DNA of 64,000 nt from Microthyrium microscopicum (Eukaryota), in contig MU004235.1 of NCBI GenBank assembly GCA_010405405.1, forward strand, positions 510,538 through 574,537, read 5' to 3'. A program made the position numbers and the translations under genes. The notes below the pieces were generated by a model. It was given only the letters and a program-made list of their open reading frames with translations, was not told the origin of the DNA and searched no databases. Numbering within the stretch: position 1 is the first letter of the stretch; every line of letters begins with the position of its first letter. Shown here in pieces: positions 35,701-52,768 of this stretch.

Positions 35701-38380
35701 TTTGAGAGACATGATTTGATCGAACAGGACAGCGACCACGATAGAGTGAAGAGTACCTACACTTTGCCATTCATAATGTATTTAGATGTACTTATGATAT
35801 CATGATAACATTGATTGAAATAGGCAAAGCATTCGGCACCCCATGCTGCGATCTTCCCATTTGGGATGCTACTGCTCATGCCGACCAGCTCAGGGACAAG
35901 ACGCAACCACTTTTGCTGTGGACCTACCGCTGAACATGAATAGCTCGCGACAAACAAAGCGACACTATTGCACATGCTTTTGGGCACTTTCTCGGCTTCG
36001 ACGATGAAGAAGAGAAGAGGTTGGAAGAATAGCGGATGGCTTGGACGATCCTAACGCCACGCGGCCACAAGCGTCTTTCCCCACGTTGTTCAAAGCGGAG
36101 AATTCCACGATCCTCGATTCCTTCCGTATCGTCAAAGTTGGAAATATCCACAACCTACACGATGATTTGGGATCGATCTTGGATCTGAAGCAATCTGGTC
36201 CATCTTTAATCCCTAGGTGAGCATCACAATTGATGGATTCATTGATCCTTTTCCACTCGTATTGCGCTCTATTTTGGTTCTTCCCCAGGTTTTCTGGCCC
36301 TCACTGCAGCTTACAGTGTGCCCTCAGGCCTTCAGTGCCGCTCAGTTTGATGATGACCTGATCTGAATCAGAACGCCTCCAGTGCGCAATAGTCCAGAAA
36401 TGCAACTGCTATTCCCGGCCCAGATATACCCTCGTGAAATTGTCTCTACAATCCAGTCACTTCTGTTCTTGAGACGGTCGATTAGTGGGTTTCATACCTG
36501 CGATTATCTACAGCTATCAACAACGGTCGCCTGTCGTAAGGAGTACTCGTAGTCTCGCACAAGTACAGGAGTCAGAATGTGGGGAAATGATAGCAATTTT
36601 GTAATTTGATATGCCAGTGCTCATTCTACGTCGCTTCAGCAAATTTGAATGCCTTGCAAGAAAGTAAATTTGACATCTTGGCGAACCTGTCAATAATGTC
36701 ATTGTCGAACAAGATGCAAGTCTCATTAGCTGCATCAGGGGACAATTGCTTCTCGAAGCCTGCAGGACGCCATCTTTTGCTTATTATGGCGCCACAAGGA
36801 GGTAATGCTTGGTAAAGTCAACGGCGATGGCGTTGCCGGCGTTTTTACCCGTCTCGCTAAGGTTTAGTGGCACAGCAGACGACGCGCTCTCAACTCCAAT
36901 GCTGCACAACACCAACAACACACTTCAATGTTGGATACCTGCACACAATTGAAGAGTTTGGCCAGCCTGTCAGTGGCTTCTTCAGAAGCGTATGATGGTG
37001 GAATTGCAGGGCTCCGCACACACCAGAAGCCAGAGCCAAAAGCCAGAACCCAACGCCACGCAGGCGGCTGCTGCACGTTGCAAACGTTGCATGCTTCCGG
37101 GGGTTCCAAGGTTTCCTGTTATATTGGAGGGCGTCGGCGTCGTCCCGCGACGATGCATGCTACCAACATGCCACACGTCCAATACCTCCAAGTCTTAGCA
37201 GCAGTCCCAACATAGAAAAGTCCGCAAGAGCTAGACCTCAACTGGGAAATCAACCCTGCGGCATGACAAGTACCCGTCCAGGTACCCACGAACCAACAAC
37301 GGCTCGCGCTGCTACAGTCCCTGACAGCTTACCTACTGTACACTCTCCATCATGTCTACTTCTGCTGTCTCCAGGTGTTAACTCCAGTATCATGGTTTCT
37401 ACTCCGTATGCTGCCCCCATGGCCAATCTCTGTCGCTTCCCCTGCTATCGTCCCCCAGCCCTGGTAAGACTACTGCTTCTATCTGCTCAGTCGACTCGTG
37501 CCAGAGAATGGCCGTGATCGACCCTTGCCGCTGCTGCTCGCTTCCAGACCCACGATACGTCTTCCCCGCGACCGGTTCTGTAACTGTTGCGGGCGGCACT
37601 ACGATGCATCATCTCTGCAGCCATTTTCTACGGTTGTGTTTGATCCATGCTTTGCACTCCTCCAGGCCATGTTTTGAGACTGGAAACAAGCCAGAGAAAA
37701 CCTTTCGGTTTTGAGAACATTCTTCGAGTGGGGTCACCAAACACTCTATACCTGTCCTCGATCGTGATATACTGCGCCCGGCATTCTTGGCTCCTAGCGT
37801 GTCAAAAATATCCACAGACTTGCGGTTCAGGCGGACCTGTTACTCTATAAGGCTGCAGGTGCTATAACTGATTCCACCAAACAGTACTGTTCAGGTCGTT
37901 TACCAGCGGCCGAGGATCAGTGACCTCTTCAAGGTGCACAGTTCTTTGTTTGACCAGTGCTAGGCCGGCATATAAATGAAGCTTCCTGGGATGACAGGCG
38001 GATCTGCCTCCCCTGCCGCAAGTAAGCCAGGGACTGCTGGTATTGGTATGGTTGGACTATCTTGCCCATCGGCTGCATTTCTTCCTTGATGTATGGGCCT
38101 GTACCTCTTCTTCCAGGTCAGTCAAGCTGTTGACAACCCTTTCTCTAGGTTTGCCCAGCACCCCAACTTCACATCCCAGAATCATTTGACCAGCATAAAG
38201 TCAGTCGTCAAGCTGCGCGGATTTACATATGAACCTTCGCCCCGGCGTCCCTCTTGCGGTTCACAATACTCGTCTTATTCATTAATCCTATTGACCTGAG
38301 CGAAGATCTGTTAATACCCAGAGACCATCACCATATTGCCTTCTCATCTATCTCAGCCTTGCTTCGCCTCTTCAGAAAAC

Positions 38381-39548
38381 ATGCTTCAACTTGCCAGTAT
38401 GGTACCTGAGCGAACTGATCGCTACGAACCATCATATCAACAAACAATGCAGCCTTTATATCAAAGTCAGATGAGGCCGCAGGATACCTATTCCTATCAA
38501 CAACCTGCGCAAGTATCGCCATCATACTCGATACCGGCTCAAAAGCGGTTCGACTACGCGTACCCAAATTCTCAATCAAATCTTACCACTGTTACTCCTC
38601 CATCACCCCCTATAGATGAAAGCAAACCACCACAAACGCTACCTTCTATATCAAGTTTGCTCGGTATCACAGAGAGTATGCAAGATTCACCAAGCTCTCA
38701 CAAATACCTGCTAACAAGATTTAGATAAACAAGCAAGTCAACAAGGTCACATTCAATCAGAGCATATTCAGCACAGTCAACAAATTCCAATCCAGCACGC
38801 TGCATCTGTCATTCCTCAGCAAGAATACAGTACTGCAGATGCTTTACCACAGAGCTATGGCTCTACTGTCGTCAATGGAAGGCTTTCATTACCATCAACA
38901 CCACCACTAATGCCAGATGGCCCTCTAGACGGAAATCAGTCACCATCCACAGCCTCGACTCAATCTACAGTACCAGGCGCACAAGCTTATTACATGAGCG
39001 GATCTGTTGGCAGCATAGATCACCAACATCGAAGCGCTTATTCAGAATCTAGTATTCCAAAGCCATTAGCAATAACCTCGCAACCCACTGTTTCTCCATA
39101 CCCAACTCCTCAATACACACCATCATCCTTTGTTTCATCACCCACAGCAATGGCCGGGGGGCCATATTACACAGACAGCCACATGGTACCAAGCGCAGGG
39201 CTTTACGGCCAGCGACCACTCCCATCAAACTTTTCAGCGGCTGTTTCCATGCCATTTGGTCCACCTTCAGCAAACAGCACGACGAATCCGTGGCAGCACC
39301 ACCATTACATCAGCGCATCGAGCCAGTCAACATTCCCGCAATCACAAGATCGTTATGTGTGTCCAACATGTAACAAGGCGTTTTCACGGCCCAGTAGTTT
39401 GCGAATCCACAGTCACAGCCACACTGGCGAAAAGCCCTTCAAATGCTCACATGCTGGGTGTGGAAAGGCGTTCAGCGTACGGAGCAATATGAAACGCCAC
39501 GAACGCGGGTGTCATGCGGGAGCTGGATCATCGACATCCGGGTCTTGA
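38381..39548 (+). CDS. mtfA: C2H2 zinc-finger transcription factor, MtfA-like; intron 38676..38724
   Basis: C-terminal two fingers [57 protein letters not shown] preceded by WQHHHY; N-terminal TPPSPP and LPSISSLL. Pattern recalled as Aspergillus MtfA rather than FlbC. Confidence 0.85.
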
Positions 39549-41676: not shown

Positions 41677-42798
41677 TTAAGGACGACCAAAGTTCTTGGG
41701 AGGATCTGGAGCTGGACCCTCCGGAGTCACGTATGCCTATTGTCACCGGTTAATCTCCGACAAGCTGCGAATAGAGTATTAGGGAAGTAACAGGACGAAC
41801 CTTTGTCATGCCTCCATCGACCACAAAGTCAGTACCGTTCACAAAGCTGCTTTCGTCGCTAGCCAGAAATAGAACAGCTTGAGCTTGCTCAATTGCTTCA
41901 CCAAACCGACCAGTAGGAAAATGAATCTCCCGACGCAGTCGTTTCTCTTTATCATCGCCAAGCCAATCTTGCAATAGTGGAGTACTGGGTTAAAACATGT
42001 TAGTTTGGATCAAGGTTTCGACAAGAGCTTCAAAAATATGAAAAAGGGCGGAATACGACATACTTGAGCGGGGCGGGACACAGAGCGTTGAATCTGAAGC
42101 CCTCTCGAGCGTGAACGATGGCCAGTTCTCTCGTCATGGCCAGCACGGCACCTTTGCTTGCGGTGTAAGCCAACTGAGGAGTCGCACTGCCGACAAGCGC
42201 AACGACGCTAGCAACATTGATGATGCTCCCCTTCTTCTTGTTGTGCTTCCGCAAGCTCAGGATTGCATGCTTGCTACCAAACCAGATGCCTTTGACATTA
42301 ATGGCCATGGTAAGATCCCAGATCCGTTCAGGGGTGTTGACAGCATCATCATCGTCCTTGTGCATGATTCCAGCATTGTTGAATATCACATCTAATCCGC
42401 CCCAGGAGTCCAGGTGCTGAATAAGAGCAGCCACATCGTCTTCTCGGCTCACATCGCAGAGCTTGGTCTCAACTTTGACCGCTTTGGGAACAATGTCTAG
42501 AAGCTTTTGTTTGGCTTTATCAAGACCGGGTCCAGAGATATCTGCCATGAGGACACTGGCGCCCTCTCGAGCAAACAGCACACATGTTTCAAAGCCGATG
42601 CCACTATATTGTCCGTCAGCGTTTGAGCATAAGAAACAAAAAGCCACAATGACAAGCCAAGGTGAACGTGAAGATGTTGGATAGGGCATTGATAGTGCGA
42701 TAGCGCCTATCTCTAGCGAATACTCACCCAGCGGCTCCAGTCACCACGGCGTTTTTGCCAGCGAGTCTACCAGATGGACTGGCGATAGTTTCGGACAT
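41677..42798 (-). CDS. Short-chain dehydrogenase/reductase (classical SDR), 3 introns
   Basis: After splicing: [23 protein letters not shown], catalytic YTASK within [39 protein letters not shown]. Confidence 0.93.
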
Positions 42799-43601
42799 AT
42801 CGAGCAGAGGAATAAGATAGAGGTCAAGACGACGGAATGTAGGTTTATATTTTGATGTTGATTGTGTGTTGGCAACTGACACGTACCCAACTAATGTAGA
42901 GCGGTACCGTAGAAGGAATGGTGGGGCTGGTGTATGACTGGCTGGCTAATTGATAGGTAATCCAATGCGGAAGTCACGATCAGAGCCGCACGAGACGTGA
43001 ATTTAGTGAAGCGGTGATGACAAAGTAGGCAGCTTCTTGCGGTGTGATTGGTATCTTCAGCGGCTGACTTGCTAGTACATGTCTACCTAGGTAGGCAAGG
43101 AGTGGACGTTGGATTAAGCTGTTGCCAGTTGCCCATTGTGGCGACAGCGATAAGGAGCACGAACCATCAAGATGCAAGCGTGACACATTCTTTGGGAAAG
43201 GCGGGGCCTCATATCGCAGTGATTTGCAGATAGCCCGCATGTCTACAAAGATGGGAAAAATTGATATTTTAACTGATTCTTTAAGCTTCACGATATCGCC
43301 GACGTACGAAATCCTGTTGAGTAAAAAGCCTGGGGCTTTGAGGCGACAATGGATCATGTTAGATTAGCCTCTTAGAGCAGTGGGAGTCGGAGACGAGGTG
43401 CATCCCTGAACGCCACGTTTACAGGGGTAGAGCTCCTTTCACAACCAACCTTCTACGGTTAGCGCCTTTTCATCCAGCCTCGTTGCACATGACGCTGTAC
43501 AAACGGCGCTTTTGACATTGGAACTTGTCGTGAAGAAATCTCTCTCGATCACACTCATATTCTCTTCTGGCTACTGTTAATCTACACGTCCTCTTTACAC
43601 C

Positions 43602-45299
43602 ATGGGAGCCGATCAAGATGTCCAAGTCACCATTGACAATCTCGCCAACATTCTCCAGGACGACATCAGTGTCAAAGTCGCCGGCGTAGATATCGATGGC
43701 CAGCTCCGTGGAAAGCTCATGGCTAAGAGCAAATTCTTGTCCGTTGCCAAAGAAGGATTCGGCTTTTGCTCTGTGATATTCGGCTGGGACATGCACGATC
43801 AGACATATTTCAGAGAGCTCAAGATAAGCAACAAGGAGAATGGCTACAGAGATCTAATCGCGGTCCCGCATCTCAAGACGTTCCGACGAATACCTTGGGA
43901 AAACAACATACCGTTTGTCCTCGTGAGCTTCATGGATCCAGATACTATGGAACCTATCAGTGCTTGTCCTAGAGGGCTCTTAGCTACCATTGTGGACAAA
44001 ATTGAAGCGAAAGGATATCAGGCAATGGCTGGTGGTAAGTTTGATCTGTTTTCGGCTTTTTGCAGCATACATCTCTCAACTCTAGAAGCCAATTCTGTCT
44101 TCAAGTCTTGATACTGATGTGTGATTTAGCTGAGTACGAGTTCTTTCAATTCAGAACTCCAGGCGCAGATAATGGAACCAACCAAAGTGCTCCATCAACT
44201 TCTGCCTTCCTGCGAAACAACCCGGTTTCTGCTCTTCCGACCATCACGGAGGGTATGTTCGGGTATAGTTTGACACGACCAGTACATAACCAGGAGTACT
44301 ACTACAGCATCTTCAACACGTGTGATCAATTCAAATGTGGAATTGAAGGATGGCATACGGAGTCTGGTCCTGGTGTATTTGAAGCTGTGAGACCACTTGT
44401 TTGACTGTCCTTGTTTCTGCTAACCGGAACAGGCCCTTCTCTTCAACGAGATCCGAGAAATGGCAGACAGAGCAGCACTGTTCAAGTGAGGATCTTACCA
44501 CTGTCTACGTAAAACATTACTAATGTACGTCTTAGACTAACAGCCAAGGCACTGGGTACCAAGTTCGGCATCACGCCCTGTTTCATGGCAAAACCACGTG
44601 AAGGACTACCTGGAAACTCTGGTCATATGCACATCTCTCTCGTTGACAAGAGCGGAAAGAACCTCTTCTCGCGCGAATCCAAGGATGAAAATGTAGAGTG
44701 GTCAGATGCTGCGTTCCTCTCTGATATGGGCCGCCAGTTCCTAGCTGGTGTACTCGACGGTCTACCAGACATCATGCCCATTGTAGCGCCAACTGTCAAC
44801 TCATACAAGAGACTCGTCGAAAACTTCTGGGCTCCAGTCACTGTTTCTTGGGGTCTCGAGCACCGCGCTGCGTCAATTCGGGTGATTTCTTCATCAGCAA
44901 ATTCAAAGAGTTCACGACTGGAGGTTCGAGTATGCGGCGCAGACGCGAATCCACATTTGGTTCTGGCGTCCATCCTTGCTCTTGGCTGGCGCGGAGTTGA
45001 GAAGAAGATGGACATTCCTGTTCCTCCACTTGGAAAGGGGGATGATGTTGGCGGGGAGTCTGATAAGGGACAGCGTTTAGCAAAGTCCCTGAAAGAGGCT
45101 ACGGCCCAGATGACGAGAAAGGGTAGTGTCGCAAGAGAAGTATTTGGTGATGAGTTCGTTGACCACTACGGTGGTACTCGAGAGCATGAGTGCCGCATAT
45201 GGGACGAGGCTGTGACTGACTGGTATGTTTTGTGTTTCTATTGAAAGGCTTTTATTAACAAATCGCAGGGAAGTTAAACGATACATTGAAACTGTGTAG
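43602..45299 (+). CDS. Type-I glutamine-synthetase-like protein (probable gamma-glutamyl-amine ligase); introns 44035..44129, 44387..44432, 44486..44535, 45223..45268
   Basis: DIDGQLRGK, ACPRGLL, AEYEFF, WHTESGPGVFE, FMAKP..GNSGHMHISL, PTVNSYKRL, RLEVR..GADANP, VTDWE..RY. GSI-like rather than the eukaryotic GSII; no N-terminal amidohydrolase domain, so not FluG proper. Confidence 0.92.
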
Positions 45300-45914
45300 A
45301 CAGACGCTCATATCTACCTCATTCAGGTGATTCACAGCGTCTTGGAGTTGTCGATATCGGATCGGTTAAACAGTAGTAAATAAATGGTAATGATATTGGT
45401 TTCGAAGCTACTGAAATGGGTAGAAATCAAAACTCTTGTCTCATCTGGTGATATTTAGCCCATCGCCTTATCTCCGGAAGCTCTGCTTTGAACTTGCAAC
45501 TACATTATCAAGGCGAAAGTAATCCCTCTCTTGGTGTCATAGAAACACTGCATCAATGGGCAGATCAGCGGGGCAGGTTGATACTGTCGTCATATGAATC
45601 GCAAACAGCATTTATGGGCAACCAAATCCGCCTCAACGACCACTTCTGGCATCCAATTGCATCTCAATTTGGACCCGAGCTGCATCTTTTGTATCTCCGC
45701 ATCCAATTGGAAAAGGGCCATGGTTAAAGCTAGTTGTGCGTTTCGATCAACCTTCTCCAGGACACAAATAGCTCCCAGATCTCCCCGCCTCGGCACAAGC
45801 TCCAGCTCTATTTTCCGACATCTCATTGACATCACAACTTCCTCTCGTTCTTCTGCAAAACTTACATTCACACCTCACCGATTCTCCTCTAGTGAACCCA
45901 CTTGTAAAACAAAC

Positions 45915-46865
45915 ATGTCTCTCCACAGCGCTGCCTGTAAGTCACATAACCCAATAACCCATCACAACTCTGCTAATACACCTCAGGCTGTACCGTCCCA
46001 CCAGTAGTCGCCAAAGACTACAGCCCAAAAGGCAAATACACCACCGTCGATGGCCTAAAAACCTGTACTCACATCCCTCCTTCCCAGACCATCCCTTCTC
46101 TAACAATCCCAGATCACACCGGCGAAAGCTCCGCAAAACATGGCATCTTCGTCGTATACGACATCTTCGGCTTCTTCCCCCAAACAATCCAAGGAGCCGA
46201 CATCTTAGCCTACGGCAACAAAGACCGCAAATACCAAGTCTTCATGCCCGATTTCTTCGACGGCAAGCCAGCAGATATCTCCTGGTATCCACCAGATAAC
46301 GAGGAGAAGGGCAAGAAGTTGGGCGCGTTCTTTGAGGGGCCGGCGGCACCGCCGAAGACTGTGGAGAAGTTGAATTCGCTTATTGCGGAGTTGAAGAAGA
46401 GTCATTCGGAGATTGAGTCTTGGGTATGTTAGAAGAGATGGACTGGGGTGTAATAGATGGCTAATTTGAGATTAGGGTATTGTGGGCTATTGCTGGGGTG
46501 GAAAGATTGTGAATCTCGTTTCTCAGGCTGGAACTCCGTTTAAGGCGGCTGCTGCTTGTCATCCTGCTATGGTTGATCCTGCTGATGCGCCTAAAGTCAC
46601 TATTCCGATTGCTTTGCTGCCATCGCAGGACGAGGATAAGGATGCTGTGGCGAAGTATGAAAAGGCACTGACTGTTAAGCACACCGTGGAGTGGTTTCCG
46701 ACCCAAATTCATGGATGGATGGCTGCTAGGTACGCGTTCAAGTTCAAGGGGTTGATAAACTGTACTAACACAATCTGCAGGTCTGACTTGGAGGATCCAA
46801 AGGTCAAGTCTGAATATGAGCGCGGCTACAAGATTCTACTAGACTTTTATCACGAAAACTCGTAA
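45915..46865 (+). CDS. Dienelactone hydrolase family protein (AIM2-like), multi-exon
   Basis: MSLHSAACC.VPPVV start, YDIFGF, MPDFF, nucleophile GYCWGGK, HPA, HGWMAAR; four short introns with canonical signals. Confidence 0.9.
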
Positions 46866-50127: not shown

Positions 50128-52257
50128 TCAAGCAACCACCACGCGAACCCGTCCCAGATTATGCACCTTAGCCCACTTTGCGGCAGTATCATTTTGAAAT
50201 GGACGTTGAGAATATGCTCGTAACGCGGGGAAATATGTCCCCTTGAGCCAGAATCTTGAACTCGTCTGGACAGTAGCGCGCTCGGAACTAGCTGAAGCAT
50301 CGACTTGCAAAGTCCCTGTATTGAGATACAGCCCCAGCCCATCAAAGTCCAGTTCCGCAGAAATGATCTTGCCAATTCCCGGAGGCAGTTCTATTACACC
50401 AGAGAACTCCACAGACTCACCAACTTTGACATCCGCGCGCTCCTTGCCGTTGGCCTTGAGGGTCACTACAGGCTGTATGCCTAGGCGCTGAGCGGCCGAG
50501 TCGGGTAGTTGGATATTGCCGTCGACCACGGTGTAGTTTGTGCTTGCTGGGGCGGGAACACCATTTTCTACCCATTGTACCAAGTCACGAAGTGCTTGTT
50601 GGATCACGGGTATGTAGGACACGATCCTTGTGTTCTCTGCTGGATACATGGTAGGTATCATTCGATCGGGAGGTGTGTGCATGCTCTTGTCAATCATCCA
50701 GGTTCGATAGTGTTTGTCCATGTCGGCACCCAAATGCTTCCGTACTTGATTCTCGTACCACCTGGACTCCCATGGAAGGGCGATCTCGTCCATCTGTGAT
50801 TCTACAAGAATCATCTTGGTATTAATTTTGCCGTTCTGTGTAGTGCCAGTGCCAGAGAGTTCATCATAGCGCTGCGAGAGAAGTGGTCGTTGTGGATATA
50901 TTGGCTTGCCATCTTTTCTGAATTGTTCCCATACTGGGTACTCTGGACCTGGGTCCTGATGTCTGTGGTATGTCTGTGATGCAAGAAATATTGAGTTGTC
51001 AATGATCACACTGTCGCCTGCCTTCATCAATCCTAATGATGGCGAGTTGCGCTCTCCATATGTGATCAAGGCAATGGGTCCAACCATGAAGAGTGTATAA
51101 ACCCATTTGCCAGCGGCCGCACCAGTCTCCAATTTGATTACTGAGCCAGTAAGATCCGTTGAAGGAGCATCTGATAGCCAAAGAGCAAGAGGAGCATTAT
51201 CAGTGACATTCTTGACGTTCTCGGGAACTGGAAAGTCAATTCCAAGGGCCTGTACTTGCTTCGCTGTCAGCATTGCCTTGATGGTAGTCTTATGGCTAAC
51301 TCTCGCTTTGAGTAATGATTGCGTTGCATTAGATCCAAGGTATCCTGGTTTGGTCCAAAAATCGTCAAAGTAGGTGGGATCCATTCGGTACACATTGTCC
51401 AACAACTGAGAAAACACTGCAGCATAACTTAAATAGCTCCTGGTATATCGAAACCAGGCGGCAGGTGCCAGTCCGAACCGTGTAACTTCTTGCAGTGCTT
51501 CCTTCTTCTCAGTGTTCAAACCCGCATAGATATCGCCACTTCCGCCTACATCAGCTGCGTCCACGATTTTCTCGTAGTCATCTCCAATGATACGCATAGC
51601 ATGCATCAGAACCGTAAAGACGTTTGGTATTGCCACAGGCGATGCTGCAATGAACGGCACAGATCCATCCCAGATCCCACTAGTACTCTCAGAGCATGCC
51701 TGAGCCTTATAAGCGCCGCCGCTGCCACCATAGACATAGCCATAGGTTCGATGTGGCCCATACATCTTTTGCATGACCTCTCGCGCAAACCGGGCAGTTG
51801 CCGCACTACCTCGATATCCAGGAATTGTTGGATCCGATCCTGGCAATGGGTCCAGACGACCTTGGTTGGACTCTACCATTGCAGCTCCAGAATCGAATCC
51901 AAATAGTCCCATATCAGGAAGATCGACGCCTACAACAAAGGTTGCGAATACGACATTTTCGCTGCCAGAAATAGCTGAAACTGGTTGGAAGAAGCGGCCT
52001 TTGTAGATTTCCTTAGGAGGCAGATAAAATGAGAACCTCAGGTCAGTCCCGTTGAAGATGCCGTGAACATAACGATGGCGTACAGGTTTGTCGCGCCATT
52101 CGTCCTTGTCGATATGAGGCTTTGTATAGAGTGGATCAATTGGACTTGGTTCGTCATTAAGTCCTATGATTTCCCTTCCTTTTCCAGAGGCGACCAGTGA
52201 TTGCCCCGTTATTGCGAACACTGTTATGACACAAGTGAAAATAGTGTTGGACCACAT
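50128..52257 (-). CDS. Intronless 709-aa secreted alpha/beta-hydrolase-like protein (tannase/feruloyl-esterase-like, C-terminal PKD-like beta domain)
   Basis: Uninterrupted 2130-bp ORF; N-terminal hydrophobic signal; GxSxG motif YGGSGG; candidate Asp (MDEIALPW) and His (SMHTPP); C-terminal beta-rich domain ending NLGRVRVVV. Confidence 0.85.
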   Translation of the reverse strand: MWSNTIFTCVITVFAITGQSLVASGKGREIIGLNDEPSPIDPLYTKPHIDKDEWRDKPVRHRYVHGIFNGTDLRFSFYLPPKEIYKGRFFQPVSAISGSENVVFATFVVGVDLPDMGLFGFDSGAAMVESNQGRLDPLPGSDPTIPGYRGSAATARFAREVMQKMYGPHRTYGYVYGGSGGAYKAQACSESTSGIWDGSVPFIAASPVAIPNVFTVLMHAMRIIGDDYEKIVDAADVGGSGDIYAGLNTEKKEALQEVTRFGLAPAAWFRYTRSYLSYAAVFSQLLDNVYRMDPTYFDDFWTKPGYLGSNATQSLLKARVSHKTTIKAMLTAKQVQALGIDFPVPENVKNVTDNAPLALWLSDAPSTDLTGSVIKLETGAAAGKWVYTLFMVGPIALITYGERNSPSLGLMKAGDSVIIDNSIFLASQTYHRHQDPGPEYPVWEQFRKDGKPIYPQRPLLSQRYDELSGTGTTQNGKINTKMILVESQMDEIALPWESRWYENQVRKHLGADMDKHYRTWMIDKSMHTPPDRMIPTMYPAENTRIVSYIPVIQQALRDLVQWVENGVPAPASTNYTVVDGNIQLPDSAAQRLGIQPVVTLKANGKERADVKVGESVEFSGVIELPPGIGKIISAELDFDGLGLYLNTGTLQVDASASSERATVQTSSRFWLKGTYFPALRAYSQRPFQNDTAAKWAKVHNLGRVRVVVA

Positions 52258-52768
52258 CTTGTAAGTTATCCAAACTTCATGGTGCTTTGAGTTTTCGAAG
52301 GCATTTTGGCCCTTTATACTCTAGAGCTGAACAACAGCCCAAGCAAACCAAGACTACTACCGATCTTACATTGTTCGTGAGGTCAACACGCACGAGGAGC
52401 TTGGGTAGACTATTGCAGCACGGTGAGAACTATAATATAACGACACTTACCATTTTGACCCCTCTGCCCTATAGGTAAGTGACAACCATTGGCAGATTAC
52501 TTGACTTTTAGGACGGTAAATAGACTGAAGCCATCTTCTATAATGAACTTAACAGTTCCATGGCTCGTTGCAACGATAATTCGCTGAAGATCATGTTGGA
52601 GCGCAGTTTTTGGTCCTGATCACCGGGGGTGTTGGCTGCGAGCTGTACTCCATGTTTCTTTCTGGTTTTTTGAACACTCTCGCAATCGGTTAGACGAACT
52701 GAAGCAAAAACCTACTCCGAGCTGTAATACATAAAGTATAGTCTTCATATCGTACAACAGGATTGCCA

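What the first reader, a model, noticed from the sequence alone, without database searches (positions are those of the whole stretch)
41677..45299. Divergent SDR + GSI-like ligase pair: candidate fungal gamma-glutamylation pathway for amine (ethanolamine-type) catabolism
Seen: the two genes are head-to-head across ~800 bp (42799..43601). The ligase is type-I GS-like, not GSII, and lacks FluG's amidohydrolase domain. Established (from memory): Streptomyces coelicolor GlnA4 is a gamma-glutamylethanolamide synthetase, and actinobacterial glnA4 sits with an SDR, an aldehyde dehydrogenase and a glutamine amidotransferase (e.g. M. tuberculosis Rv2857c-Rv2860c). The SDR here carries the motif I associate with that SDR subfamily (AT.Q..YTASKG.VLAM.REL...AREG.R.NALCP.P..TPLL...RR..H.P.GRF). 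Inference: fungi retain a linked two-gene glutamylate-then-oxidise module, which I am not aware has been characterised. Both genes have introns, so any bacterial origin is old.
Basis: partly seen in the sequence, partly recalled or inferred. Interest (0 to 1): 0.75.

Follow-up and report, generated by a model that had tools for sequence, protein, structure and literature searches.

The report
Fungal glutamyl-ligase and dehydrogenase gene pair
This mould and many related fungi keep two back-to-back genes that most likely tag a small amino alcohol such as ethanolamine with glutamate and then oxidise it to gain nitrogen, a route I found described only in bacteria.

Summary
The pair is real. An SDR (42798-41677, minus strand, 284 aa) and a GS-like ligase (43602-45299, 486 aa) diverge across 803 bp. 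All 7 introns are spliced in a public run. The SDR lies beside the ligase in 21 of 25 independent fungal loci while other neighbours change. GATAAG is about 5-6 times enriched in the shared promoters. The ligase lacks the ammonia-handling residues, and a normal GSII lies elsewhere in the genome. It sits in a separate bacterial clade whose operons carry Fe-ADH, ALDH and a C26 hydrolase. One member follows an ethanolamine permease and shares 28 of 31 pocket-loop residues with the fungal enzyme. The SDR does fall among GlnA4-operon SDRs, so the pair looks chimeric. Best reading: glutamylate, then oxidise, an amino alcohol for nitrogen (0.72; ethanolamine itself about 0.55). No activity is shown, and the bacterial hydrolase families were not found in this genome. 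Ten paper searches found no fungal description. The scan noted this pair before in four other genomes.

The parts
41677..42798 (-). Short-chain dehydrogenase gene, 4 exons, 284 aa. TGAAGGIG at 20, Asp45 after beta-2 (NAD-type, established knowledge), Ser156, Tyr170-x3-Lys174. Member of the GlnA4-operon SDR subfamily; predicted gamma-glutamyl-amino-alcohol dehydrogenase.
42799..43601 (.). Shared divergent promoter and 5' UTRs, 803 bp. An X1 contig carrying the SDR exons runs to 43156; ligase contig pieces are listed from 43715.
43148..43154 (+). CGATAAG, the single GATAAG of this promoter. Further GATA[AG] cores lie at 42816, 42952 and 43229. Candidate AreA/Nit2-type nitrogen-regulation site (inferred).
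43602..45299 (+). GS-like gamma-glutamyl-amine ligase gene, 5 exons, 486 aa. Metal, ATP and glutamate residues kept (E146, E148, E222, E229, H278, H280, R340, R358, R363, E377, R379); D50 lost, Y179 to F188, E327 to W346.

Best explanation
The pair is the front half of a gamma-glutamylation route for breaking down a small primary amino alcohol, most likely ethanolamine, switched on when nitrogen is scarce. Step 1 (inferred, strong): the ligase uses ATP and Mg/Mn to make gamma-glutamyl phosphate and joins it to the amine, giving gamma-glutamyl-ethanolamide. Step 2 (inferred, fairly strong): the NAD-type SDR oxidises the free alcohol to the aldehyde; the glutamyl group masks the amine so that reactive aminoacetaldehyde is avoided. 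Steps 3-4 (inferred, weak; genes unlinked and unidentified): a general aldehyde dehydrogenase gives gamma-Glu-Gly, and a non-bacterial gamma-glutamyl hydrolase, transpeptidase or cyclotransferase frees glycine. The divergent promoter co-expresses both genes under a GATA factor. Shown: gene structure, splicing, conserved linkage, GATA enrichment, residue changes and tree positions. Not shown: any activity, substrate or regulation. Ethanolamine as the main substrate is about 0.55 on its own.
For: (1) SDR beside the ligase in 21 of 25 de-duplicated fungal loci with at least 3 kb upstream, 18 of them divergent; 30 of 34 on a looser count that favours positives. Other neighbours vary by lineage. 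Adjacent locus tags: DPSP01_003507/8 and PV09_00347/8. (2) All catalytic metal, ATP and glutamate residues are kept; D50, Y179 and E327 are replaced, the pattern reported for PauA7 and GlnA4 (PMC6529630). (3) The nearest bacterial ligases have an Fe-ADH within 1.5 kb in 19 of 25 loci. In extended loci, ligase, Fe-ADH, C26 hydrolase and ALDH lie together in L176 and L179, which implies an amine bearing an oxidisable alcohol. (4) L115/L177 is ethanolamine permease (TIGR00908, 425 bits against a cut-off of 381.75), ligase, Fe-ADH, ALDH. Its ligase matches the fungal pocket loops at 28 of 31 positions, the best of all bacterial rows (next 25), at only 43% overall identity. (5) The SDR's best NCBIfam model is PRK06057. 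It nests among bacterial SDRs at 45-58% identity, and 6 of the 7 with context lie beside a GlnA4-type ligase, one of them with an eat permease. (6) GATAAG occurs in 26 of 27 divergent promoters, 1.74 per kb against 0.37 in the rest of the loci and 0.28 in 3' flanks; permuted words are not enriched. (7) A canonical GSII lies elsewhere in the genome. (8) The best sequence and fold match in the PDB is Csal_0679, 5DM3, from the organism for which the ethanolamine glutamylation route was predicted.
Against: The ligase is not in the GlnA4 clade, and it shares only 7-11 of 31 pocket-loop residues with GlnA4-type proteins. No member of its own clade has a tested substrate that I found. The permease link rests on 1 of 25 ligase loci and 1 of 30 permease loci, and I noticed the pocket match by eye before counting it (about 1 in 25 by chance). 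Other members of the wider clade sit with aminotransferases or polyamine transporters. Peptidase C26 and FGase were not found in this genome (an exon-wise search can miss them). No ALDH stands out as an operon orthologue (best 38%), and the ALDH near some pairs is only 25-37% like operon ALDHs. 4 of 25 loci lack the SDR nearby. The GATA controls are not other promoters, this window's promoter holds only one GATAAG, and other GATA factors bind the same word. SDR subfamily support against the outgroup is weak (77/93). The role of SCO1611 itself is only predicted.
Confidence: 0.72

Rival explanations
1. The ligase glutamylates amines without an alcohol (alkylamines, diamines or polyamines) and the SDR acts later, after an unlinked oxygenase or oxidase, as in the isopropylamine (Ipu) or Puu routes.
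For: IpuC-annotated ligases score higher against the fungal ligase than GlnA4-type ones do (220-227 against 165-181 bits), and they also have an SDR neighbour. Trp at the flap position is shared with PauA7. Some clade relatives lie beside spermidine/putrescine transporters.
Against: The Ipu-operon SDRs are only 35-36% like the fungal SDR and fall outside its subfamily. IpuC-like ligases form a separate branch. PuuA is 25% identical. No P450 or oxidase recurs beside the fungal pair. The nearest bacterial operons carry an alcohol dehydrogenase and no oxygenase was seen in them.
Confidence: 0.13
2. The pair makes or stores a gamma-glutamyl amide (a detoxified form, nitrogen store or FluG-like signal) rather than feeding catabolism to glycine.
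For: The downstream bacterial hydrolase families were not found in this genome. FluG shows that fungi use a gamma-glutamyl ligase in development (PMC6478659). The SDR is kept at 77-79% identity even in powdery mildews. The PF00120 search found no FluG in this genome (a lower bound).
Against: GATAAG enrichment fits nitrogen scavenging. The bacterial sister operons are catabolic in layout. Loss of MoGLN3, a probable but unverified orthologue, did not impair appressorium formation or virulence (PMC8229676).
Confidence: 0.1
3. The ligase is a second, ordinary glutamine synthetase, as annotated, and the SDR is an incidental head-to-head neighbour.
For: Databases name it glutamine synthetase. Head-to-head pairs can persist in fungi (established knowledge). 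TIGR00653 is its best NCBIfam match.
Against: It scores 221 bits against a cut-off of 429. D50, Y179 and E327 are lost. A GSII is present. The partner SDR belongs to the very subfamily that accompanies glutamyl ligases in bacteria, while next-best SDRs in this genome match at E 1e-28 or weaker.
Confidence: 0.05

Closest known systems
Streptomyces coelicolor ethanolamine cluster SCO1610-SCO1615 (GlnA4 = SCO1613, SDR SCO1611, ALDH SCO1612, hydrolase SCO1615); PMC6529630
   Same: GS-like ligase without the ammonia residues, linked to an SDR of the same subfamily. The S. viridifaciens cluster of like layout was used as a stand-in; its SDR is 47% identical to the fungal one.
   Different: The fungal ligase belongs to another clade (31% identity; AU p=0.0004). 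Two divergent, intron-bearing genes replace an operon. No linked ALDH, hydrolase, permease or GntR-type repressor; GATA sites instead.
Chromohalobacter salexigens Csal_0679 (PDB 5DM3) and the Fe-ADH/FGase-type operons
   Same: Best PDB match by sequence (E 7e-43) and by fold (Z 39.2, rmsd 2.6, 366 aligned; tied within about 1-2 Z with true GSI).
   Different: 27% identity. Operons of this type group with GlnA4 and use Fe-ADH and FGase rather than an SDR.
Uncharacterised bacterial clade with ligase, Fe-ADH, ALDH and often peptidase C26 (phylum of G001, an Archangium MAG; also Collimonas, Burkholderia, Rhizobium)
   Same: Holds the fungal ligases (100/100). Shares the GFC..xFGWD, GMFGYS and RLVE..WAP loops. 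One locus has an ethanolamine permease.
   Different: Uses Fe-ADH: 0 of 25 loci show the SDR. The SDR was found in only 3 of 401 genomes of that phylum, and there beside GlnA4-type ligases or an ALDH. No tested substrate was found.
FluG / NodGS
   Same: Fungal GSI-like gamma-glutamyl ligase domain without GS activity (PMC6478659).
   Different: FluG is about 865 aa with an N-terminal amidohydrolase; this protein is 486 aa with none. No FluG sequence was included in my tree.
Magnaporthe oryzae MoGln3 (MGG_02538) and the fungal 'Gln3' group; PMC8229676
   Same: A single-domain third 'glutamine synthetase' conserved in fungi, cytoplasmic, and dispensable for appressoria and virulence; probably this family (inference).
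   Different: Treated there as a glutamine synthetase, with no amine substrate, SDR partner or pathway in the passages I read. Orthology was not verified by sequence.

Membership tests
True glutamine synthetase type I (GlnA) | D50, Y179 and E327 ammonium site and flap | tested here: not met
   E327 to W346, Y179 to F188; D50 is not Asp under either alignment register (C56 or F70)
True glutamine synthetase type I (GlnA) | TIGR00653 above cut-off | tested here: not met
   220.7 against 429.15 bits
GS-like gamma-glutamyl-amine ligases (broad) | GSI fold with metal, ATP and glutamate residues kept and ammonia residues lost | tested here: met
GS-like gamma-glutamyl-amine ligases (broad) | ATP-dependent glutamylation of an amine | not testable with these tools
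   needs an enzyme assay
GlnA4 (gamma-glutamylethanolamide synthetase) clade | Monophyly with GlnA4-type ligases | tested here: not met
   AU p=0.000413, lnL 91.8 lower; 37 rows, LG+G4; S. viridifaciens protein as stand-in for SCO1613
GlnA4 (gamma-glutamylethanolamide synthetase) clade | Linked SDR or ADH | tested here: met
   21 of 25 loci
GlnA4 (gamma-glutamylethanolamide synthetase) clade | Linked ALDH and gamma-glutamyl hydrolase | tested here: not met
   none recurs beside the pair; C26 and FGase not found in the genome
GlnA4 (gamma-glutamylethanolamide synthetase) clade | Specificity for ethanolamine | not testable with these tools
   indirect only
PuuA / gamma-glutamylputrescine synthetase | NF045547 above cut-off; grouping with PuuA | tested here: not met
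   170.5 against 650 bits; PuuA lies outside the clade, on a long branch
FluG | N-terminal amidohydrolase domain | tested here: not met
   486 aa, GS fold from residue 8
GlnA4-operon SDR subfamily (PRK06057 and kin) | Nests among SDRs of glutamylation operons and carries the subfamily motifs | tested here: met
   sister to Meiothermus/Acidobacteria/Chloroflexi SDRs at 99/98; [AS]T.Q..Y.ASKG in 119 of 120 fungal and 117 of 120 bacterial hits
GlnA4-operon SDR subfamily (PRK06057 and kin) | NF004713 equivalog cut-off | tested here: not met
   267.8 against 404 bits, though it is the best model; the Streptomyces operon SDR scores 507
AreA/Nit2 nitrogen regulon | GATA sites conserved in the promoter | tested here: inconclusive
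   enriched across species, but the controls are not promoters and this window has one GATAAG
AreA/Nit2 nitrogen regulon | AreA-dependent induction on poor nitrogen | not testable with these tools
   only assembled contigs of one run were available

The most novel reading that the evidence does not exclude
Fungi have carried, since before the chytrid-Dikarya split, a bacterially derived gamma-glutamyl-ethanolamide synthetase. Filamentous ascomycetes coupled it, under one nitrogen-regulated two-way promoter, to a dehydrogenase taken from a different bacterial operon type. Together they form an unrecognised, B12-independent eukaryotic route from ethanolamine to glycine, finished by glutathione-cycle enzymes rather than the bacterial hydrolases. 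It is kept even in powdery mildews to harvest nitrogen from membrane-lipid head groups.
Probability: 0.4. Interest if true: 0.75.

Novelty: new variant of a known kind. Interest (0 to 1): 0.58.

Why it matters
Hundreds of fungal proteins are filed as 'glutamine synthetase' and 'oxidoreductase' when they probably do something else, so metabolic models carry a spurious GS and lack a pathway. Phosphatidylethanolamine head groups are a common nitrogen source in litter, soil and hosts, and my searches found no account of how filamentous fungi break ethanolamine down. The pair gives a sharp, cheap test: two soluble enzymes, one predicted intermediate, and knockouts in model moulds. It is also a case of two genes from different bacterial operon lineages held together in a eukaryote by shared regulation.

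Tried and rejected
GlnA4 orthology of the ligase: rejected by tree and AU test.
The ALDH near the pair in 5 loci (L031, L035, L037, L038, L040) as a third pathway gene: only 25-37% like operon ALDHs, variable in side, with an N-terminal hydrophobic stretch. I read it as an MSC7-like housekeeping ALDH (label recalled).
The downstream dienelactone-hydrolase gene as the missing hydrolase: linked in only 5 of 29 clusters, plus three fused annotations; not adopted, not excluded.
Ligase-SDR fusion: none among 12 longer homologues scanned.
A bacterial operon joining the fungal-type ligase with the fungal-type SDR: not found in 401 genomes of one phylum or in the plasmid loci read. Other phyla could not be searched, so one-step transfer against later assembly stays open.
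The genome-wide bacterial pattern scan returned 1 locus.
ATGTTGA(A) near the SDR start is enriched but unexplained. AAGCTT partly reflects coding overlap.
No holder on record as RNA was listed, and X1 is a guess; its depth was not used.
Adjacency in Leotiomycetes and Fusarium, and the identity of published 'Gln3' accessions, could not be checked by accession. Linkage outside Pezizomycotina is untested.
Paper searches found no fungal glutamylation pathway; the locus tags used in 92 and 105 were recalled and may not all be orthologues. The library lacks most subscription papers, and I read no supplements, where expression data for these genes may lie.
10.1101/2021.12.09.472016 (passages), PMC3706326 (passages) and PMC10512294 (one passage) added nothing decisive. 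No complex prediction was run.
Full report
Observation. The window is fungal. The ligase (43602-45299, +) has five exons and 486 codons. The SDR (42798-41677, -) has four exons and 284 codons. They diverge across 803 bp. My models are identical to database proteins P0001 and P0121, named by NCBI as from Microthyrium microscopicum. All seven introns are skipped in contigs of run X1, which the tool guesses to be RNA. Each gene is single-copy: the next SDR matches at E 7e-28, and the only other GS-family locus found is a GSII with the FDGSS motif.

Linkage. A metagenome scan with a 26-sequence fungal alignment confirmed 226 stretches and returned the best 80. These collapse to 61 clusters at 90% nucleotide identity. 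Of 25 clusters with at least 3 kb upstream of the ligase, 21 hold the SDR orthologue, 18 divergent and 3 tandem, and 4 do not. Counting also shorter contigs in which the SDR is visible gives 30 of 34, a count biased toward positives; 27 clusters were too short to judge. Nearest named proteins place these loci among Dothideomycetes, Chaetothyriales, lichen fungi and sordariomycete-like fungi. Adjacent locus tags in Paraphaeosphaeria and Verruconis agree. Other neighbours are lineage-specific housekeeping genes: pyruvate carrier, ribosomal protein, citrate synthase, an ALDH, a dienelactone hydrolase. The pair is the constant unit.

The ligase. It scores far below every NCBIfam cut-off (GlnA 221 of 429; gamma-glutamylputrescine synthetase 171 of 650). 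The predicted model (pLDDT 74.7) has the GSI fold, best matched to Csal_0679, 5DM3 (Z 39.2, rmsd 2.6, 366 aligned), with true GSI structures close behind. Against E. coli GlnA, all eleven metal, ATP and glutamate ligands checked are kept. E327 is Trp346, Y179 is Phe188, N264 is Pro273, and D50 is absent in either register of an ambiguous loop. PMC6529630 reports the same kind of change for PauA7 and GlnA4 (passages). Homologues occur in Glomeromycota, chytrids, Zoopagomycota and Trichomonascus/Wickerhamiella yeasts. In a 37-row tree the ten fungal rows are one clade (100/99), nested in a bacterial clade (100/100) that excludes the six GlnA4-type proteins. Forcing fungi with GlnA4-type proteins is rejected (p-AU 0.0004). 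A 70-row quick tree agrees. S. coelicolor GlnA4 itself was not available; the S. viridifaciens cluster of like layout stood in for it. FluG was not in the trees.

The bacterial sister clade. In the phylum of an Archangium MAG, 31 of 121 genomes match at E below 1e-50, most at 38-47% identity. Of 25 loci read with 1.5-kb flanks, 19 have an Fe-dependent alcohol dehydrogenase, and none has the SDR. I extended 16 loci and scanned 55 of 107 candidate ORFs. L176 and L179 hold ligase, Fe-ADH, peptidase C26 and ALDH; L178 holds ligase, Fe-ADH and C26; L177, L180 and L189 hold ligase, Fe-ADH and ALDH. Several more distant loci (L182-L187) showed no such neighbours. An ADH, an ALDH and a glutamyl hydrolase around an amine ligase point to an amino alcohol. 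In L115/L177 the operon starts with an ethanolamine permease above the curated cut-off. That ligase matches the fungal enzyme at 28 of 31 positions in three pocket loops, the best of all bacterial rows, against 22-25 for its 24 phylum relatives and 7-11 for GlnA4-type proteins. This is one locus, noticed before it was counted, and only 1 of 30 permease loci in that phylum has the ligase within 1.5 kb. Wider relatives on plasmids sit with an ALDH, a glutamine amidotransferase, aminotransferases or polyamine transporters, so the clade is probably not uniform in substrate.

The SDR. It is a classical SDR with an acidic residue after beta-2, which by established knowledge means NAD preference. Its best model is PRK06057 (268 bits, below the cut-off of 404), and its best PDB match is 4WEC at E 9e-63, with the next at 8e-43 (that 4WEC is mycobacterial is recalled). 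Among plasmid records seven hits stand apart (218-284 bits, then 172). The four I opened all lie in GlnA4-type ligase operons, one with an eat permease. The fungal SDRs are sister (99/98) to Meiothermus, Acidobacteria and Chloroflexi proteins at 55-58% identity, inside that subfamily; the subfamily's own support against long outgroup branches is weak (77/93). Of three such SDRs in 401 genomes of the myxobacterial phylum, two adjoin GlnA4-type ligases and one an ALDH. So the two fungal genes trace to different bacterial operon types. Whether they came together from an unsampled bacterium or met in fungi is open.

Regulation. In an unbiased k-mer count over 27 divergent intergenic regions, GATAAG was the top 6-mer (26 of 27 against 9.8 expected) and CGATAAG the top 7-mer (17 against 2.4). 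Density is 1.74 per kb against 0.37 in the rest of the loci and 0.28 in 3' flanks (p 3e-8); permuted words are not enriched. GATAAG is the classic AreA/Nit2/Gln3 element (established knowledge). The controls are not other promoters, related species are not independent, other GATA factors exist, and this window has one such site (43148). It is a good lead for nitrogen-metabolite repression, not proof.

Mechanism. Most likely the ligase makes gamma-glutamyl-ethanolamide or a similar amide, the SDR oxidises it to the aldehyde, and unlinked enzymes finish the route to glycine and glutamate, as proposed for SCO1611-SCO1615 (PMC6529630, passages and section 14; PMC9397018, passages). Only GlnA4's step is shown biochemically there. 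The weak point in fungi is the back half. Peptidase C26 and FGase were not found in this genome, and no ALDH stands out, so general ALDHs and glutathione-cycle enzymes must be assumed. Confidence is 0.72 for an amino-alcohol catabolic module and about 0.55 for ethanolamine. Rivals: other amines (0.13), storage or signalling (0.10), an ordinary GS with a chance neighbour (0.05).

What is known. Ten searches (listings and abstract starts) found the pathway only in bacteria and archaea. PMC8229676 (passages and section 15) describes a single-domain fungal 'Gln3' that is cytoplasmic and dispensable for appressoria and virulence. It is probably this family, but I could not verify that by sequence. 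PMC6478659 (passages) covers FluG, a different architecture. I read no supplements, and most subscription papers are outside the library. The scan's own notes list the same pair in four other genomes with the same reading. I saw them after my main tests; they are not independent support.

Verdict. A real, intact, conserved and probably co-regulated gene pair that works like the bacterial ethanolamine glutamylation route but is not a GlnA4 member by descent. New variant of a known kind; interest 0.58.

Noticed in passing
window 1-21000: AT-rich block (GC 0.23) with TpA/ApT 1.75 and (CpA+TpG)/(ApC+GpT) 0.09, against 0.70 and 1.29 in the gene-rich part: a strong RIP signature, probably decayed transposons.
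   Followed up: partly
window 45445-45503: A 59-base skip with CT..AC ends in run X1: an intron of a minus-strand transcript between the ligase 3' end and the next gene, so an antisense or small unannotated RNA.
   Followed up: no
window about 45915-46865, + strand: Dienelactone-hydrolase-family gene (PF01738, GYCWGG motif, 4 spliced introns) directly downstream of the ligase. Also near the ligase in 5 of 29 fungal locus clusters and fused to it in three lichen-fungus annotations, probably merged gene models.
   Followed up: partly
window 50128-52320, - strand: Intron-free ORF of about 710-730 aa with no Pfam match. ESM Atlas look-alikes at 0.98-0.99 are mostly bacterial hypothetical proteins, some with Tannase (16-28%) or PKD (27-60%) domains; a possible secreted hydrolase of bacterial origin, not tested.
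   Followed up: partly
window 38315-39548, + strand: C2H2 zinc-finger transcription factor gene about 2 kb beyond the SDR 3' end; not seen in any of 80 related fungal loci, so probably unrelated to the pair.
   Followed up: partly
P0126, P0134, P0164, P0194, P0215: Powdery mildews (Podosphaera, Blumeria, Erysiphe) keep the SDR at 77-79% identity over the queried exon; whether they keep the ligase beside it was not checked.
   Followed up: no
P0273: A Gregarina (apicomplexan) protein falls in the same wider ligase clade but outside the fungal branch: a separate eukaryotic acquisition or contamination.
   Followed up: no
G000, PF00120 search: Only two GS-family loci were found in the genome: this ligase and a GSII at C1:420893. 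No FluG was seen, though the count is a lower bound.
   Followed up: partly
divergent promoters of L015, L022, L028, L035, L037, L038, L040, L070, L071, L075 and window 42855: ATGTTGA(A) recurs, mostly on the SDR side, in 12 of 27 promoters for the 8-mer and 0 times in 25 kb of 3' flanks; unexplained.
   Followed up: partly
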